DNA of 64,000 nucleotides, taken from contig JBHHZD010000006.1 of NCBI GenBank assembly GCA_046757885.1, positions 14,914-78,913 on the forward strand. Direction: 5' to 3'. The position numbers and the translations under genes were made by a program. The notes beneath the pieces were generated by a model that saw only the letters and a program-made list of their open reading frames with translations, did no database searches and was not told the origin of the DNA. Origin of the DNA: Gemmatimonadota bacterium. Its GTDB lineage: Bacteria > Gemmatimonadota > Gemmatimonadetes > Palauibacterales > Palauibacteraceae. Shown here piece by piece: positions 445 through 60,216 of the stretch. Every line of letters starts with the position of its first letter. The first letter of the stretch is position 1.

Positions 445-1540
445 ACCGGTGGACCGGGACGCCGTCGTCGGCCGCCAGGTTCTCGACCGCGTCGAAGAAT
501 CCCATCCAGCCGAGCTCGGCGAACTCGCTCTGGTGGGCATGGAACATGTGGAGCCCGGGATGCCCGAGCTCGAACTCCAGGATGTGGCGTTCGCCCTGGC
601 AGAGCATGACCGTGTCCGTGATCTCGTGCGCCTCCGGTCGCGTGCCCGTGCGGAAGACCCGGAACATCGCGGCGTGCAGGTGAAAGCTGTTGATGAGATC
701 GAACTCCGTCAGGTTCACGAGGTAGACGCGCACCGGCTCGCCCACGCCGACGCGCACGGGATGGCTCCGGTAGAAGAACGCGGCCGTGTTCACCGCGTAG
801 ATCTCGTTCTCGCCGTCGAAGTTCGTGTCGAATCCGTTCATCACCATCACGAGCTCGCGGGCCGGCGAGCGCCCGTCCGGCGGATCCACGATGAACGCGC
901 CGTAGAGACCCTTGTGGATGTGCCGCTTCAGCGGGATCGCGTGGCAATGATACAGGTGCAGGCCCCACGGCAGCGCCTCGAACTCGTACGTGAACTTTTC
1001 GCCCGGCGCCACGACGGGCTCCACGCCGTCCATCCCGGGCGGATGGATGCCGTGAAAGTGGATCGTGTGGGGGTGCGAGCCGGCGTTCCGGAAGCGCACG
1101 CGGATCCGGTCCCCTTCCCGGCAACGGATGGTGGGTCCGGGCACGCGGCCGTTGTAGGTCCAGGCGGGGAACCACACGCCCGGCGCGACCTCGATCTCTC
1201 GATCGAGGGCGATGATCTCGTACTCCCGCACGGTCTCGCCCCGGGGACCCCGGACGATCCGTCCCCCGTCGAACTCCGTCAGATAGCGCACCGGGTCGAA
1301 GCCGTCGGCGGGCGTTCCGTTTCCGTACACCCCCATCCGCAGCTGCTCCATGCCGTGCGGATCGTGGCGGACGGCCGCCTCTCCCGCCTCCTGGCTTCGG
1401 ATCCCGGCCCGTCCGAGGGAAGCGCCCGCGGCGCTCCTGCGGGCCAGGCTCAGGACCGTCGCTCCCGAGAGTCCCGCCACGCCCGCCGCTCCGAGCCGCA
1501 GCCAGTCGCGCCGATTCATCGGCTGTGGCCGCTGATGCAT
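437..1540 (-). CDS. two-domain multicopper oxidase (laccase/NirK-like), Tat-secreted
   Basis: 367 aa. Twin-arginine signal MNRRDWLRLGAAGVAGLSGATVLSLA. Cu-ligand motifs HTIHFHGIH, LHLYHCHAIPLKRHIHKGLYGAFIVD (HCH...H...G.YG type-1/trinuclear signature) and HMFHAH. Preceded by an AT-rich segment at 1541..1604 (ttagttttagtgttagctaaaaatgg). Confidence 0.8.
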   Translation of the reverse strand: MHQRPQPMNRRDWLRLGAAGVAGLSGATVLSLARRSAAGASLGRAGIRSQEAGEAAVRHDPHGMEQLRMGVYGNGTPADGFDPVRYLTEFDGGRIVRGPRGETVREYEIIALDREIEVAPGVWFPAWTYNGRVPGPTIRCREGDRIRVRFRNAGSHPHTIHFHGIHPPGMDGVEPVVAPGEKFTYEFEALPWGLHLYHCHAIPLKRHIHKGLYGAFIVDPPDGRSPARELVMVMNGFDTNFDGENEIYAVNTAAFFYRSHPVRVGVGEPVRVYLVNLTEFDLINSFHLHAAMFRVFRTGTRPEAHEITDTVMLCQGERHILEFELGHPGLHMFHAHQSEFAELGWMGFFDAVENLAADDGVPVHRYG

Positions 1541-21248: not shown

Positions 21249-24521
<3,273 letters not shown>

Positions 24522-24563
24522 CGCTCCGGGGTTTTCGTGCGTATTCATATGGAACGATGAGTA

Positions 24564-24583
24564 GCCGGATCCCCGGATCCGGC
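24564..24583. terminator. GC hairpin downstream of carB
   Basis: gccggat-ccccgg-atccggc (7-9 bp stem) 43 nt after the carB stop; no T-tract. Confidence 0.3.
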
Positions 24584-24706
24584 TTCGCTCATCGCGACCC
24601 ATACGGCGGAATGTTCGTTACGCCCGGGGTATTTCATCGGTCGGGGGACGGGTGCCTTCCGGCCAGGAGAGTCCGGGGTAGTCTACTCGCTCCGAATGGA
24701 GGCACT

Positions 24707-25003
24707 ATGTTGAAGAAGTTGCGCACCGCATGGATCGCACCGCTCGCCGTGGTGTTCGTCGCGGCGGCGTGCTCGTCGGCGGACAACGCCGCGGACACCT
24801 CCGCGGACACGGCGGCCGACGTCGAGAATCCGTGCGCGGCCAACCCCTGCGCGGCGGATGAAGCCAACCCCTGCGCGGCGGATGAAGCCAACCCCTGCGC
24901 GGCCAACCCCTGCGCGGCCGACGAAGCCGGCATGGACAACCCCTGTGCGGCGAACCCCTGCGAGGCGAACCCGTGCGCGGCGAACCCCTGCGCGGGCGAC
25001 TGA
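24707..25003 (+). CDS. small Cys-rich tandem-repeat lipoprotein (NPCAA repeats)
   Basis: RBS-like GGAGG 6 nt upstream of the ATG. Signal plus lipobox MLKKLRTAWIAPLAVVFVAAAC. Mature part is nine NPC(A/E)A units: ...VENPCAANPCAADEANPCAADEANPCAANPCAADEAGMDNPCAANPCEANPCAANPCAGD (9 Cys in about 60 aa). Confidence 0.6.
   Translation: MLKKLRTAWIAPLAVVFVAAACSSADNAADTSADTAADVENPCAANPCAADEANPCAADEANPCAANPCAADEAGMDNPCAANPCEANPCAANPCAGD
24827..24998 (+). repeat. in-frame DNA tandem repeats encoding the NPCAA units
   Basis: Perfect 24-nt tandem aacccctgcgcggcggatgaagcc at 24842..24865 and 24866..24889, flanked by degenerate copies (aacccctgcgcggcc, aacccctgtgcggcg, aacccgtgcgcggcg). Confidence 0.7.
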
Positions 25004-25021
25004 CCGAACGTTCCCGGCAGG

Positions 25022-26356
25022 ATGGATGATTCGTTCGCCGTGAGCGGACGGAGAGGAGCCCGGCCGACCTCGGCCGGGCTCCGGCGCTTGGAGGGCGCCG
25101 CTCTTCTCCTGGCCGTCTTCGCGGCCGCCTGCGGGCGCGAGCCGCGTGCGACGGAGCCGATGGCCTCGCCACGCGCCGACGCCAGGGTGTTCGAGGACAT
25201 GCAGGACTTCCTCGACGGCTACATGGTGAGGCCGATCCCCTCCCAGGGATCTCCCCCGGAAGAGTTTTCGGCGCTCGAAGCGTCTCTCCAGCCCAGGGAC
25301 TGTGGCACGTGCCACGTCCAGCAGTATCAGGACTGGCAGACGACCGTCCACTCGCGCGCCTATTCTCCAGGTCTCTCGGGCCAGCTCGTGAGCCAGGAGG
25401 ACACGAACTTCGGGTATGTCCGGAGCTGCTACACCTGTCACGCCCCCCTGTCCGAGCAGGCCGCGAAGCTCCAGTCTTCCGGGGGGGCCTACCTGCGAAA
25501 TCCGGACTTCGACCACGAGCTCAAGGAGCACGGCCTCGTGTGCGCGGCCTGTCACGTCCGTGGCTGGAGGCGGTACGGGGCACCGCGGCGCGATGGCTCC
25601 GTCGAGCCGTCCCCACCGGGCTCGCCTCACGGCGGCGTGACGAGGTCCCCGTTCTTCGAGGACCCGCGGCTGTGCGGGAGCTGTCATCAGTTCGAGTCGC
25701 CGGCCCCGAACGGAAAATCTCTCCAGAACACGCTCACGGAGTGGAGACAGAGCCGCTACGCGCGCGAGGGCATGACGTGCCAGAAGTGCCACATGCCGGA
25801 CCGCAGACATCTGTGGCGGGGCATCCACGACCCCGAGATGACGGCGTCCGGCATCACGATCGAATGGGTCGGCGTGGGGCCCGCGGCGGCGCGGGAGGGT
25901 GGCGTGGGGATCCGCGTGACGAACAGTGGCACGGGCCACCGATTCCCGACGTACGTGACGCCCGAGGTCCGAATCCGCGTCGAGCTGCTGGACGGAGCGC
26001 ACGAGCCGATCCCGGGCGCGTTCACCGACAGCGCCATCGCGCGACGCGTGACGACGAGGGCAGGAGCCTGGGTCGAGCTATCGGATACCCGGCTCGCCCC
26101 GGACAGCAGCATGGTCGTGACGGTGCCGGCGGGCGGTCTGGCGGCGGAAGCGGCGCGAGCTACGGTGACCGTCCACCCGGACGCGTTCTACCAGGGCGTG
26201 TACCGGAGCCTGCTCTCCGGAGCGCTGAGCGACACCTCACGGGTGCTTCTGCAGAAGGCGCTGCGGAGAACCGAGGAGTCCCCGTACGGGATCTTCGACG
26301 AAACGATCTCGCTCGTTCCCGAGCCTCCGAGCGCGAGCCGCACGCTTCGGGACTAG
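25022..26356 (+). CDS. pentaheme c-type cytochrome lipoprotein
   Basis: Five CxxCH motifs: CGTCH, CYTCH, CAACH, CGSCH, CQKCH. Lipobox LLLAVFAAACG. Begins 19 nt after the NPCAA gene stop. The minus-strand ORFs 24683..26002 and 24634..25200 are antisense artefacts. Confidence 0.8.
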   Translation: MDDSFAVSGRRGARPTSAGLRRLEGAALLLAVFAAACGREPRATEPMASPRADARVFEDMQDFLDGYMVRPIPSQGSPPEEFSALEASLQPRDCGTCHVQQYQDWQTTVHSRAYSPGLSGQLVSQEDTNFGYVRSCYTCHAPLSEQAAKLQSSGGAYLRNPDFDHELKEHGLVCAACHVRGWRRYGAPRRDGSVEPSPPGSPHGGVTRSPFFEDPRLCGSCHQFESPAPNGKSLQNTLTEWRQSRYAREGMTCQKCHMPDRRHLWRGIHDPEMTASGITIEWVGVGPAAAREGGVGIRVTNSGTGHRFPTYVTPEVRIRVELLDGAHEPIPGAFTDSAIARRVTTRAGAWVELSDTRLAPDSSMVVTVPAGGLAAEAARATVTVHPDAFYQGVYRSLLSGALSDTSRVLLQKALRRTEESPYGIFDETISLVPEPPSASRTLRD

Positions 26357-59209: not shown

Positions 59210-60216
59210 GCCGGGATCCAGCCCGCCCCGCGATACCACGCGGCCGTTCGGCGCAACCCGTCGGCCAACGATACGTCGGCCCTCCAGCCGAGCCCCCGCT
59301 CCGTGACCGAGACGTCGCACGTCCACTCGTGGCGCGCGAGGTCCGTCGCGCGACGGCGGTCGAACACGGGCCGTATCCCCCGGAGCCGGGCCGCGAGCTC
59401 CGCCACCGCGCCCGCCGATTCGAGGAGGCGCGGGGGCACGCGCAGCACCCGCACGCGTCGGCCGACCGCCGCCCCGAGCTCCCGCGCGACCTCGCTCCAG
59501 TCGTGCACCGACGTGCCCGCGATGTCCCACGGGCCGGGACCGGCGCTTCCCACTGCGCCGATCACGACCGCACGCCCGACGTCCTCGGCATACACGGGCT
59601 GGAGGCGCCCGGGCCCGGCCGGCGCGACCAGGAAGCCGCGGGCCGCCATCCGGAACAGCGGAAGCAGGTCCGCATCCCGCGGCCCGTAGACCCCCGTCGG
59701 CCGCAGGATCACCGGCTCGAACGCGCCGCCCGGCTCTCGCGCGATGCCGAGCAGCCGCTTCTCCGCCTCGCGCTTGCTGCGCCCATAGGCGCTCACCGGC
59801 GCATCTCCGCCAGCCACCGGGTCGACACCCGCCGGGAGGTCCCGGTGGTCGGGGCCCCGGGCGGCGAGACTGCTCACGAGAACGAAGCGCCGGACTCCCG
59901 CGGCCCGGGCCAACCGCGCCAGACGTTCCGTGCCCCCCACGTTCACGGCCTCGTACTCGGCCGGATCGCCGGCCCGCGTGAGACCTGCCGCGTGCACGAC
60001 GGCGCCGATTCCTTCCACGGCGGCGCGGAGCGACGCCTCGTCCGACAGGTCCGCCGGGACGCGCTGCACATCCAGATCCTCGATCCAGGCCAGACGGCTC
60101 GAGGGACGCACCGTGCATCGCACCGCGTGGCCCGCCGCCGCGAGGGCCCGGGTGATGTGGCTGCCTACGAACCCCGTCGCGCCCGTGACGAGCACGGGCT
60201 CAGACCGGACGGTCAT
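59206..60216 (-). CDS. NAD(P)-dependent epimerase/dehydratase-family SDR (candidate ceramide/3-ketosphinganine reductase)
   Basis: Rossmann VLVTGATGFVGSHI; catalytic YGRSK (Y-x3-K). Confidence 0.8.
   Translation of the reverse strand: MTVRSEPVLVTGATGFVGSHITRALAAAGHAVRCTVRPSSRLAWIEDLDVQRVPADLSDEASLRAAVEGIGAVVHAAGLTRAGDPAEYEAVNVGGTERLARLARAAGVRRFVLVSSLAARGPDHRDLPAGVDPVAGGDAPVSAYGRSKREAEKRLLGIAREPGGAFEPVILRPTGVYGPRDADLLPLFRMAARGFLVAPAGPGRLQPVYAEDVGRAVVIGAVGSAGPGPWDIAGTSVHDWSEVARELGAAVGRRVRVLRVPPRLLESAGAVAELAARLRGIRPVFDRRRATDLARHEWTCDVSVTERGLGWRADVSLADGLRRTAAWYRGAGWIPA

What the first reader, a model, noticed from the sequence alone, without database searches (positions are those of the whole stretch)
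24707..26356. Cys-rich NPCAA tandem-repeat lipoprotein immediately upstream of a pentaheme c-type cytochrome lipoprotein
The 98-aa ORF has an SD, a lipobox (VAAAC) and a mature region that is nine copies of NPC(A/E)A(A/D/E), with 9 Cys in about 60 residues. It is encoded by near-perfect 24-nt in-frame DNA tandem repeats. Its stop lies 19 nt before a lipoprotein with five CxxCH haem motifs.

Regularly spaced Cys within Ala/Asn/Pro spacers suggests a metal-, haem- or disulfide-relay polypeptide, or a repeat-length-variable surface redox partner. I do not recognise this repeat as a described family. The tandem DNA repeats also make it a candidate for slipped-strand length variation.
Basis: seen in the sequence. 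Interest (0 to 1): 0.75.

Follow-up and report, generated by a model that had tools for sequence, protein, structure and literature searches.

The report
Secreted poly-cysteine repeat partner of cytochromes
A small, unannotated lipoprotein made of nine Asn-Pro-Cys repeats is a real gene. It belongs to a widespread, apparently undescribed family of cysteine "arms" that many bacterial phyla place beside, or fuse to, periplasmic haem proteins and thioredoxin-like proteins, probably for sulfur or thiol redox chemistry.

Summary
Window 24707-25003 (+) encodes a 98-aa lipoprotein precursor with nine NPC(A/E)(A/G) units. It lies 18 nt upstream of a five-CxxCH lipoprotein cytochrome (25022-26356).

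The small ORF is coding:
- GC3 is 0.90 in frame, against 0.63-0.64 at the other codon positions.
- A GGAGG ribosome-binding site and a promoter-like element are conserved in a relative.
- Syntenic Gemmatimonadota orthologues carry canonical lipoboxes and 5 or 12 units.

Neither the depositors' gene call nor a 15-billion-protein collection contains it. Pfam, NCBIfam and full-text searches give no family.

About 230 relatives were collected. Asn-Pro precedes 90-95% of their cysteines.

The link to cytochromes is strong. NPC genes sit beside homologues of this pentahaem cytochrome in Beta-, Gamma- and Zetaproteobacteria, Zixibacteria and Gemmatimonadota. NPC arrays are fused to SoxA/TsdA-type cytochromes, class I cytochromes c, cytochrome P460, DM13 and redoxin domains. 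The pentahaem is sometimes fused to a thioredoxin.

The cytochrome has the fold of Thermochromatium penta-haem c552 and is distantly related to the polysulfide reductase MccSep, but lacks MccSep's catalytic Cys and Sec.

Best reading (about 0.4, inferred): a flexible thiol or sulfur-carrier arm serving the cytochrome. Metal binding remains a live rival.

The parts
24518..24547 (+). Promoter-like element: TTGACG (24518-24523), an 18-nt spacer, then TATTCA (24542-24547). It overlaps the carB stop codon.
   Evidence: It is conserved in the Gemmatimonadota relative L017 as TTGACG-18-TATTTA, while the rest of the intergenic region has diverged. The strict consensus scan did not report it. Its function is inferred.
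24698..24702 (+). Shine-Dalgarno GGAGG, 4 nt before the ATG.
   Evidence: Read from the sequence. The block AATGGAGGCAyTATG is conserved in L017.
24707..25003 (+). Gene for the 98-aa NPC-repeat lipoprotein precursor. It is absent from the protein collection that holds its neighbour's product, so it was apparently not called in the source record.
   Evidence: GC3 0.90 in frame. Orthologues: L017:4541-4966, P0008 and P0005. The exact sequence is absent from the 15-billion-protein collection although the neighbouring cytochrome is present.
24707..24772 (+). Signal peptide ending in the lipobox Cys22 (VAAAC).
   Evidence: Read from the sequence. The N-terminus M(L/V)K.(L/F)R(T/A)AW...(A/G)C is conserved in L017, P0005, P0008 and P0312.
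24827..24997 (+). Array of nine NPC(A/E)(A/G) units, split into blocks by DEA and DEAGMD spacers. The DNA repeat periods are 15 and 24 nt, both multiples of three.
   Evidence: AlphaFold2 gives no fold (pLDDT 54, pTM 0.22).
25022..26356 (+). Pentahaem c-type cytochrome lipoprotein, 444 aa (438 aa if it starts at GTG 25040). The putative lipid-attachment site is Cys37.
   Evidence: Five CxxCH. Pfam MtrC/MtrF II-IV 1.7e-11 and Cytochrome_C554. P0087 is 100% identical and named 'multiheme c-type cytochrome [Gemmatimonadota bacterium]'.
25283..25846 (+). Helical five-haem domain, about residues 88-275. CxxCH motifs at residues 94, 136, 174, 218 and 253. Conserved candidate distal histidines: H110, H203, H263, H269 and H306.
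   Evidence: Alignment A1, AlphaFold2 model and profile alignment to 5ZE8 and MccSep.
25853..26176 (+). C-terminal Ig-like beta-sandwich, about residues 278-385, carrying the conserved TNSGTGHRFPTY loop.

Best explanation
The small gene encodes a Sec-exported, lipid-anchored and intrinsically disordered chain that displays nine cysteine thiols. Each thiol is held in an Asn-Pro-Cys turn.

I propose it is the thiol partner of the co-transcribed pentahaem cytochrome. Its cysteines would cycle between thiol and disulfide, persulfide or thiosulfonate states, and the cytochrome would take up or supply the electrons. Functionally this makes it a multi-armed analogue of the SoxY carrier arm. It would carry or present sulfur (or simply redox-active thiols) to haem enzymes that have no catalytic cysteine of their own.

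In other phyla the module is fuller:
- NPC arrays flank a SoxA/TsdA-type cytochrome.
- The pentahaem follows and is sometimes fused to a thioredoxin.
- TlpA-like redoxins, a YeeE/SoxT-type transporter and DUF6969 lie alongside.

The Gemmatimonadota locus is a minimal two-gene version.

Shown here: the gene is real, the family exists, and it is linked by fusion and by neighbourhood to haem and thioredoxin-fold proteins. Inferred: every chemical step.
For: **Gene reality.**

**Neighbourhood**
- NPC genes lie within 2.5 kb of pentahaem homologues in 6 of 16 loci fetched through the cytochrome alone. These are Sulfuritalea, a zetaproteobacterium, a Chromatiaceae member, a zixibacterium, a Gemmatimonadota relative and L019.
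- A pentahaem lies within 6 kb in 4 of 9 loci fetched through NPC peptides alone.

**Fusions**
- Of 36 longer relatives, 13 carry SoxA-TsdA_cyt-c, 4 carry cytochrome P460 and 2 carry DM13.
- Other relatives carry class I cytochrome c or Redoxin/AhpC-TSA.

**SoxA-type haem.** The NPC-flanked cytochromes have an invariant extra Cys. It aligns with Cys114 of Rhodovulum SoxA 1H31, 34 residues after His80 of CADCH. SoxA-family enzymes conjugate thiosulfate oxidatively to a thiolate through a Cys haem ligand, and SoxY supplies the acceptor arm (PMC4423706).

**Thioredoxin links**
- The pentahaem is fused to a WCPTC thioredoxin in L005 and L029.
- Thioredoxin-fold genes lie nearby in L001, L013, L016, L028 and L029.

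**Sulfur transport.** YeeE/Sulf_transp genes lie next to the pentahaem in L001, L006-L009, L013 and L028. YeeE-like SoxT is proposed to import sulfur from SoxY (PMC11582611).

**The cytochrome itself**
- It is distantly related to the polysulfide reductase MccSep (E 2.5e-6).
- It has Leu and Val where MccSep has Cys239 and Sec325, and no free Cys at all (bioRxiv 10.1101/2025.11.18.688581).

**The peptide.** It has no predicted fold, which fits a flexible arm.
Against: - There is no experiment on any member of the family.
- The window holds no SoxA-like, thioredoxin, YeeE or DUF6969 gene. The sulfur context is borrowed from distant relatives.
- Two close Gemmatimonadota relatives keep the cytochrome without the peptide, so the cytochrome does not need it.
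- About half of the NPC peptides sampled have no pentahaem nearby.
- Some contexts point to metals instead: a multicopper oxidase and YceI (L019), a YHS-domain protein (L027, L029), a neighbouring bufferin operon (L001), and Met/His-rich variants (L003, L005).
- NPC arrays also occur on OmpA- and LysM-domain proteins, which suits a tether or scaffold.
- Five conserved distal histidines suggest that all five haems are bis-His electron carriers with no obvious catalytic site.
- Unpaired thiols are hard to keep reduced in an oxidising periplasm.
Confidence: 0.4

Rival explanations
1. The peptide is a periplasmic or surface soft-metal or metalloid binder: a genetically encoded, phytochelatin- or metallothionein-like chain that sequesters or hands over Cu(I), Hg, Cd, As(III) or Se. 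The cytochrome would act as the metal or metalloid reductase or oxidase.
For: - It has nine evenly spaced thiols in a disordered chain.
- Zetaproteobacterial and Chromatiaceae variants are rich in Met and His and contain C-N-P-C (CxxC) units.
- Metal-linked neighbours: a multicopper oxidase and YceI in L019, a YHS-domain (seleno)protein in L027 and L029, a two-component system directly upstream in L025, and a bufferin (MNIO) operon 3 kb away in L001.
- The related MccSep also reduces selenite (bioRxiv 10.1101/2025.11.18.688581). YedE-family transporters have been linked to selenium (from memory).
Against: - The dominant spacings are 5-6 residues, not the CxC or CxxC clusters of metallothioneins.
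- The strict Asn-Pro before each Cys is not explained by metal binding.
- The commonest fusion partners are SoxA-type and other haem domains and redoxins, not metal chaperones or P-type ATPase domains.
- The window holds no metal-resistance gene within 20 kb. The only multicopper-oxidase-like hit is 23 kb away.
Confidence: 0.22
2. The NPC array is mainly structural: a flexible spacer, or a disulfide 'velcro' that tethers and clusters periplasmic redox proteins to the outer membrane or cell wall. The window's lipoprotein would be an anchor with no catalytic role.
For: - In lipoprotein fusions the array sits between the lipobox and the globular domain (P0014, P0068, L019, P0312), as linkers do.
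- Arrays occur on OmpA- and LysM-domain proteins and give Cornifin/SPRR-like low-complexity hits.
- Net charge is not conserved: 134 members are basic and 31 acidic.
- The peptide has no predicted fold.
Against: - Ordinary linkers do not keep an exact N-P-C motif (90-95% at each position) across phyla.
- Cysteine is generally avoided in exported linkers (general knowledge, not tested here).
- The window's cytochrome has its own lipobox and no NPC array to pair with.
- The count of cysteines shows no even/odd preference (81 against 89), so fixed intramolecular disulfide pairing is not indicated.
Confidence: 0.15
3. The peptide is the precursor of a post-translationally modified product, with its cysteines altered before or after export. 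This would resemble bufferins, which are Sec-exported MNIO-modified metallophores. The modifying enzyme could be the recurrent DUF6969 protein or the FGE/EgtB-like proteins.
For: - DUF6969 lies immediately downstream of NPC peptides in L014/15, L027 and L028, and downstream of the pentahaem in L001. It has no signal peptide and carries a His-rich motif.
- FGE-sulfatase/EgtB-like genes are present in L003 and L029.
- A strict local motif around each Cys would suit enzyme recognition.
Against: - The window has no DUF6969, FGE-like or MNIO gene.
- DUF6969 has no known activity and no match among solved structures.
- The MNIO operon in L001 has its own canonical DUF2282 precursor.
Confidence: 0.1
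4. The ORF is not a gene. It is a GC-rich, non-coding tandem repeat that happens to be open.
For: - It is missing from the protein collection that holds its neighbour's product, so it was apparently not called.
- High-GC DNA gives many spurious ORFs.
- There are no expression data.
Against: - GC3 is 0.90 in this frame only.
- Variation between units is synonymous.
- The ribosome-binding site, signal peptide and lipobox are conserved in orthologues that differ in repeat number but keep the frame.
- About 230 collected relatives, from many phyla, carry the same motif; 87 cluster representatives match the window peptide directly.
Confidence: 0.03

Closest known systems
SoxY carrier arm of the SoxYZ/SoxAX thiosulfate-oxidation system, with its SoxS/SoxW thioredoxins and YeeE-like SoxT
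   Same: - An exported protein presents a flexible cysteine to a SoxA-family His/Cys-haem cytochrome.
- The gene set is parallel in related loci: a SoxA-type cytochrome, an electron-transfer cytochrome, thioredoxin-fold proteins and a YeeE-type transporter (PMC4423706, PMC11582611).
   Different: - SoxY is a folded Ig-like protein with a single C-terminal GGCGG cysteine and a SoxZ partner.
- Here there is no fold, 3-14 cysteines in N-P-C units, no SoxZ and no SoxB.
- The window itself has only the peptide and the pentahaem.
MccSep (ExtKL) polysulfide reductase of Geobacter, and the small ExtJ protein encoded just upstream of it
   Same: - Five CxxCH plus a C-terminal Ig-like domain.
- A shared TN..GH..P loop.
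- Profile E 2.5e-6.
- In both cases a small exported protein of about 100 aa and unknown function lies immediately upstream (PMC5877670, 10.1101/169086).
   Different: - The catalytic Cys239 (haem-2 ligand) and Sec325 are Leu and Val here.
- The NCBIfam ExtKL score is 48 bits against a cut-off of 250.
- The ExtJ sequence could not be fetched, so any similarity to the NPC peptide is untested.
Low-potential penta-haem cytochrome c552 of Thermochromatium tepidum (PDB 5ZE8)
   Different: - Only 16-20% identity.
- Its function is also unknown (10.1101/2023.11.21.568154 calls it 'of unknown function').
- No NPC partner has been reported for it.
Metallothioneins, phytochelatins and bufferins (Cys-based metal binders)
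   Same: - Short, Cys-rich and low in complexity.
- Bufferins are likewise Sec-exported and periplasmic.
   Different: - No CxC or CxxC clusters in most members.
- An invariant Asn-Pro precedes each Cys.
- No MNIO partner in the window.
- No Pfam or NCBIfam match.

Membership tests
Bacterial lipoprotein (signal peptidase II substrate) | Positively charged n-region, hydrophobic h-region, and a lipobox [LVI][ASTVI][GAS]C within about the first 35 residues | tested here: met
   The sequence is MLKKLRTAWIAPLAVVFVAAAC|S. Position -3 is Ala, which is non-canonical but allowed by the PROSITE pattern as I recall it. Orthologues have LAAC (L017), LAGC (P0005) and VAGC (P0008). Lipidation itself cannot be tested here.
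SoxY sulfur-carrier protein | Ig-like SoxY fold with a C-terminal GGCGG carrier cysteine, paired with SoxZ | tested here: not met
   No fold is predicted (pLDDT 54). There is no GGCGG motif, no Pfam or NCBIfam SoxY hit, and no soxZ nearby. Only a functional analogy is proposed.
Metallothionein-type metal-binding peptides | Dense CxC/CxxC/CC clusters that form metal-thiolate clusters | tested here: not met
   In the window peptide the distance between successive Cys is 5, 8 or 11 residues. Family-wide the commonest distances are 6, 5, 3 and 8 residues. No metallothionein family hit. Metal binding as such cannot be tested with these tools.
Pentapeptide-repeat (A(D/N)LXX) beta-helix proteins | Match to the Pfam pentapeptide models, with a hydrophobic central residue in each five-residue unit | tested here: not met
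   No Pfam hit at E<=1. The central residue is Pro. AlphaFold2 predicts no beta-helix.
MNIO-modified RiPP precursors (bufferins, HvfA, methanobactins) | An adjacent MbnB/DUF692-family enzyme and its partner (DUF2063 or MbnC) | tested here: not met
   tblastn of the L001 MNIO, DUF2063 and BufA proteins against the whole window gave no hit. The L001 MNIO operon has its own DUF2282 precursor.
MccSep/ExtKL multihaem (seleno)protein family (for the cytochrome) | Five CxxCH plus a C-terminal Ig-like domain | tested here: met
MccSep/ExtKL multihaem (seleno)protein family (for the cytochrome) | Conserved Cys distal ligand of haem 2 (C239) and Sec/Cys in the D-G-U-P loop (U325); score above the NCBIfam cut-off | tested here: not met
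   C239 aligns with Leu234 and U325 with Val312. There is no Cys outside the lipobox and the CxxCH motifs. NF040886 scores 48 bits against a cut-off of 250.
Penta-haem cytochrome c552 fold (5ZE8) | Five-haem helical domain followed by an Ig-like domain, superimposable on 5ZE8 | tested here: met
SoxA/TsdA cysteine-ligated cytochromes (for the NPC-flanked cytochromes of related loci, not present in the window) | A c-type haem domain with a conserved Cys axial ligand about 35-45 residues after CxxCH | tested here: inconclusive
   Pfam PF21342 hits at 1e-10 to 1e-15 in 13 members. The invariant Cys aligns with SoxA Cys114 of 1H31. That Cys114 is a haem ligand rests on my memory of the SoxAX structure paper. 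Ligation in these proteins has not been measured.

The most novel reading that the evidence does not exclude
NPC arrays are genetically encoded poly-thiol swinging arms of a previously unrecognised, Sox-independent periplasmic sulfur (or selenium) redox pathway. A SoxA-type His/Cys haem loads sulfur onto the arms. The c552/MccSep-type pentahaem has lost the family's own catalytic Cys and Sec and uses the arm's thiols in trans to make or break S-S bonds. Thioredoxin domains reset the arms, and a YeeE-type channel takes the sulfur inward. The Gemmatimonadota pair would be the minimal form of this pathway.
Probability: 0.22. Interest if true: 0.85.

Novelty: new variant of a known kind. Interest (0 to 1): 0.62.

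Why it matters
If the reading is right, a common but uncalled class of small genes supplies the missing "substrate arm" for a large family of pentahaem cytochromes. More than 2,400 relatives were found, and the one solved structure (5ZE8) has no assigned function.

That would give a handle on how bacteria outside the classical Sox and Dsr systems move sulfur or thiol equivalents through the periplasm.

There is also a practical point. Gene callers miss these repeat genes or call the wrong strand: in L017 a 57-aa antisense ORF was annotated instead. Their distribution is therefore underestimated.

Even if the chemistry turns out to be metal binding, this would be a new type of periplasmic cysteine-based binder tied to haem proteins.

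Tried and rejected
- **Family scans.** Pfam and NCBIfam scans of the peptide gave nothing useful. The only hit was a TssJ match at E 0.59.
- **Literature.** Full-text searches for NPCA, NPCAA, NPCNPC, CNPCA and DUF6969 found nothing relevant.
- **Metagenome scan.** The scan with the window peptide chose non-repeat words and returned only two identical TARA loci. These carry an acidic ENPCG lipoprotein and no cytochrome. That scan was in effect wasted.
- **Promoter, terminator and RNA scans.** The strict promoter/terminator scan found nothing. The promoter-like element came from comparison with L017. Rfam found nothing above threshold in 24400-25100.
- **DUF6969.** A tblastn hit of DUF6969 at window 59216-59338 lies inside an NAD-dependent epimerase-like ORF and is spurious. 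DUF6969 has no relative among solved structures and no NCBIfam model.
- **Peptide structure.** AlphaFold2 of the peptide gave no usable model.
- **Sequence-only PDB search.** The search with the cytochrome was too weak to use. The profile and fold searches were needed.
- **Cysteine parity.** I tested whether Cys counts favour even numbers, which would indicate fixed disulfide pairs. They do not: 81 even, 89 odd.
- **The 844-aa ORF.** The 844-aa ORF 22469-25003, in the same frame as the peptide, is a high-GC artefact that runs through carB in another frame.
- **ExtJ.** I could not obtain the Geobacter ExtJ sequence, or reads or strain variants of this MAG.
Full report
**1. The observation**

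The small ORF runs from ATG 24707 to TGA 25001-25003 and encodes 98 residues: MLKKLRTAWIAPLAVVFVAAACSSADNAADTSADTAADVENPCAANPCAADEANPCAADEANPCAANPCAADEAGMDNPCAANPCEANPCAANPCAGD.

- A GGAGG sits 4 nt before the ATG.
- There are nine N-P-C units between residues 41 and 97.
- Tandem Repeats Finder sees a perfect 24-nt repeat of only 2.7 copies (24839-24903). The array as a whole has a 15-nt period with 7.1 copies at 74% match. "Near-perfect 24-nt repeats" therefore describes only part of it.
- The next ORF starts at ATG 25022, 18 nt after the stop. It has exactly five CxxCH motifs.

**2. Is the small ORF a gene?**

Several independent lines say yes.

- GC at third codon positions is 0.90 in this frame, against 0.64 and 0.63 at positions 1 and 2. 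This matches the neighbouring genes. The nine units differ almost only at synonymous sites.
- It is the only six-frame ORF in the 64-kb window with two or more NPC.
- A Gemmatimonadota relative whose cytochrome is 60% identical (L017) has the same gene order: carB, small ORF, cytochrome, then the TMEM260-like glycosyltransferase after one extra unannotated ORF of 289 residues. Its small ORF is MVKALRAAWVAPLAAFMLAAC... with a canonical LAAC lipobox and twelve NPCA units.
- Two further orthologues from the protein search share the same N-terminus: P0008 (5 units, VAGC) and P0005 (partial, LAGC).
- Between the window and L017 the intergenic DNA has diverged except for two elements. One is a TTGACG-18 nt-TATTCA/TATTTA block that overlaps the carB stop. 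The other is the ribosome-binding block AATGGAGGCAyTATG. I read these as a dedicated promoter and translation start; that is an inference.
- The exact protein is absent from a 15-billion-protein collection, although the adjacent cytochrome from the same record is present. In L017 the depositors' pipeline called a 57-aa ORF on the opposite strand instead. The gene is real but was apparently not called.

**3. The family**

Pfam and NCBIfam have no model for the peptide. Full-text searches for the motif found nothing.

- A word-indexed search found 86 relatives of the window peptide. A pure-repeat query found 149.
- An exhaustive HMMER scan of 1.84 billion cluster representatives found 87 clusters at E<=0.001.
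- Of about 230 collected members, 170 are stand-alone proteins of 135 residues or fewer, with 3-14 cysteines (median 8); those whose sequences I read all begin with a signal peptide.
- Across their 1361 cysteines, Asn is at -2 in 90% and Pro at -1 in 95%. Ala follows in 73% (+1) and 59% (+2). The distance between successive Cys is mostly 6, 5, 3 or 8 residues.
- Net charge is not conserved: 134 members are basic and 31 acidic, and the window's is acidic.
- Even and odd Cys counts are equally common (81 against 89).
- AlphaFold2 predicts no fold for the window peptide (pLDDT 54, pTM 0.22).

The conserved thing is therefore a local Asn-Pro-Cys unit on a flexible chain.

**4. The link to haem and thioredoxin-fold proteins**

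*Neighbourhood*

- I fetched 16 distinct loci through the cytochrome alone. Of these, 6 have NPC-repeat genes within 2.5 kb: Sulfuritalea, a zetaproteobacterium, a Chromatiaceae member, a zixibacterium (there as a YceI-NPC fusion), the Gemmatimonadota relative L017, and L019.
- I fetched 9 distinct loci through NPC peptides alone. Of these, 4 have a homologue of the pentahaem within 6 kb.

*Fusions*

- Among 36 longer relatives, 13 carry a SoxA/TsdA-type cytochrome c domain flanked by NPC arrays. Another 4 carry cytochrome P460, 2 carry DM13, and one each carry OmpA and LysM.
- Others carry class I cytochrome c, including Gemmatimonadota lipoproteins P0014 and P0068, or Redoxin/AhpC-TSA domains.
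- P0312 has a signal peptide closely resembling the window peptide's (MMRALRRLWLMPVAAMASVAAC), followed by a SoxA-like domain between two NPC arrays.

*SoxA-type haem*

The NPC-flanked cytochromes share an invariant Cys 39 residues after CxxCH. In a profile search of solved structures the best hit is Rhodovulum SoxA (1H31, E 9e-5). The invariant Cys aligns with Cys114 of that chain, after His80 of CADCH. I recall Cys114 as a haem axial ligand. SoxA-family enzymes conjugate thiosulfate oxidatively to a thiolate through such a Cys, and the SoxY arm is the acceptor (PMC4423706).

*Thioredoxin-fold proteins*

- In L005 and L029 the pentahaem itself is fused to a C-terminal WCPTC thioredoxin.
- Thioredoxin-fold genes of several types lie nearby in L001, L013, L016, L028 and L029 (TlpA-like in L013, DsbH/DUF255 in L001, AhpC-TSA/Redoxin in the others).

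*Other recurrent neighbours*

- YeeE/Sulf_transp lies next to the pentahaem in seven loci, including four that have no NPC gene.
- Also recurrent are DUF6969, DUF302 and a secreted protein of about 150 aa with a 'CQF' motif.
- One locus has flavocytochrome c sulfide dehydrogenase and a rhodanese.

**5. The cytochrome**

The window comes from a Gemmatimonadota MAG (P0087, 100% identity). More than 2,400 relatives have E<=1e-10.

- An AlphaFold2 model (pLDDT 85.7) shows a helical five-haem domain followed by an Ig-like sandwich.
- A profile of 58 homologues hits 5ZE8 at E 3.6e-13 and the Geobacter polysulfide reductase MccSep at E 2.5e-6. All five haem motifs and the TN..GH..P loop align.
- MccSep works through a Cys ligand on haem 2 (C239) and a selenocysteine (U325) (bioRxiv 10.1101/2025.11.18.688581). 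In the window protein these positions are Leu234 and Val312. The protein has no cysteine outside the lipobox and the haem motifs. Five histidines (H110, H203, H263, H269, H306) are conserved as candidate distal ligands.
- It is therefore not a member of the MccSep family. It looks like an electron carrier, or an enzyme whose reactive thiols must come from elsewhere.

**6. Interpretation**

The most economical reading is that the NPC lipoprotein is a flexible, membrane-tethered set of reactive thiols that works with the cytochrome. It could be a thiol/disulfide couple, or a carrier of sulfane sulfur or thiosulfonate. The analogy is with SoxY, SoxAX, the SoxS/W thioredoxins and YeeE-like SoxT (PMC4423706, PMC11582611). 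I put this at about 0.4.

The main weaknesses:

- The window contains only the peptide and the cytochrome.
- Two close relatives have the cytochrome without the peptide.
- All the chemistry is inferred.

Metal or metalloid binding is the chief rival (about 0.2). It is supported by Met/His-rich and CNPC variants, and by a multicopper oxidase, YceI, YHS-domain proteins and a nearby bufferin operon in some loci.

A structural tether or disulfide scaffold is next (about 0.15), supported by the linker position and the OmpA and LysM fusions. A modified-peptide precursor is also possible (about 0.1), because DUF6969 and FGE-like genes recur. A non-coding repeat is very unlikely.

**7. Novelty and score**

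I found no description of this repeat family or of its association with c552-type pentahaems. As a kind of thing (a cysteine carrier or binder working with periplasmic redox enzymes) it has known analogues. I therefore rate it a new variant of a known kind, with a real chance of marking an unrecognised sulfur or thiol pathway. Interest is 0.62.

Noticed in passing
L016:6559-7206 (-): A secreted redoxin next to an NPC peptide has an in-frame TGA in its active site (VLVFYRGHW*PYC, that is W-U-P-Y-C). The gene caller split it into two ORFs. It is a candidate periplasmic thioredoxin-fold selenoprotein.
   Followed up: partly
P0239, P0266, P0269, P0284 (NPC-Redoxin fusions): Four separate clusters all end at ...FFYSQDFNPT, exactly where the peroxidatic or redox Cys of BCP/redoxin proteins is expected. 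This suggests a UGA (Sec) read as a stop.
   Followed up: no
L005:5932-7620 and L029:3493-5229: Homologues of the pentahaem cytochrome are fused to a C-terminal thioredoxin domain (WCPTC; Thioredoxin_7 / DsbD-gamma-like). I have not seen this haem-thioredoxin fusion described.
   Followed up: partly
L001:7975-8424, L013:8877-9353, L025:6326-6793: A secreted protein of about 150 aa (motif TQ..CQF.E.E.G..HG) with 54-60% mutual identity recurs with NPC genes. One member scanned (L001) has no Pfam or NCBIfam match.
   Followed up: partly
L001:7254-7973, L014:6418-7023, L027:6415-7056, L028:3299-4108: DUF6969, a His-rich protein without a signal peptide, recurs directly downstream of NPC peptides or of the pentahaem. 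No literature, no solved relative and no NCBIfam model were found.
   Followed up: partly
L001:10167-12752: A canonical bufferin-type operon (DUF2282 precursor, MNIO/MbnB-like, DUF2063, DoxX) lies about 3 kb downstream of the NPC/pentahaem cluster in Sulfuritalea. It is probably a separate unit.
   Followed up: partly
L017:4807-4980 (-): In the Gemmatimonadota relative, the public annotation calls a 57-aa ORF antisense to the NPC lipoprotein gene. This shows how these repeat genes get mis-annotated.
   Followed up: yes
window 24564-24583: A hairpin, GCCGGAT-CCCCGG-ATCCGGC (also seen as a 2x8-nt repeat, CCGGATCC), lies between the promoter-like element and the small ORF. It is not conserved in L017 and has no T-run after it.
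   Followed up: no
window 24779-24810: A second short in-frame repeat (12-nt period, 2.7 copies) encodes the ADNAADTSADTAAD spacer between the lipobox and the NPC array.
   Followed up: no
window 25022 vs 25040: The cytochrome start is ambiguous. ATG 25022 gives 444 aa. The deposited protein (P0087, 438 aa) starts at GTG 25040. Both keep the lipobox Cys.
   Followed up: partly
window 464-1171 (-): A multicopper-oxidase-like coding region (tblastn E 7e-17 to the L019 oxidase) lies 23 kb from the finding. No link to it was shown.
   Followed up: no
L004 and L010 (Zixibacteria), upstream of the pentahaem: An OmpR-type response regulator, a histidine kinase, a candidate porin and a candidate periplasmic substrate-binding protein (a PstS-like reading from its N-terminal sequence only; none of the four was scanned against a family library) lie divergently upstream of the cytochrome in both genomes.
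   Followed up: no
L023:8004-8261: An acidic variant of the repeat, ENPCG(D/E) in 8 units, occurs in a lipoprotein on a TARA ocean contig with no cytochrome nearby. It shows that the NPC unit survives a complete change of charge.
   Followed up: partly
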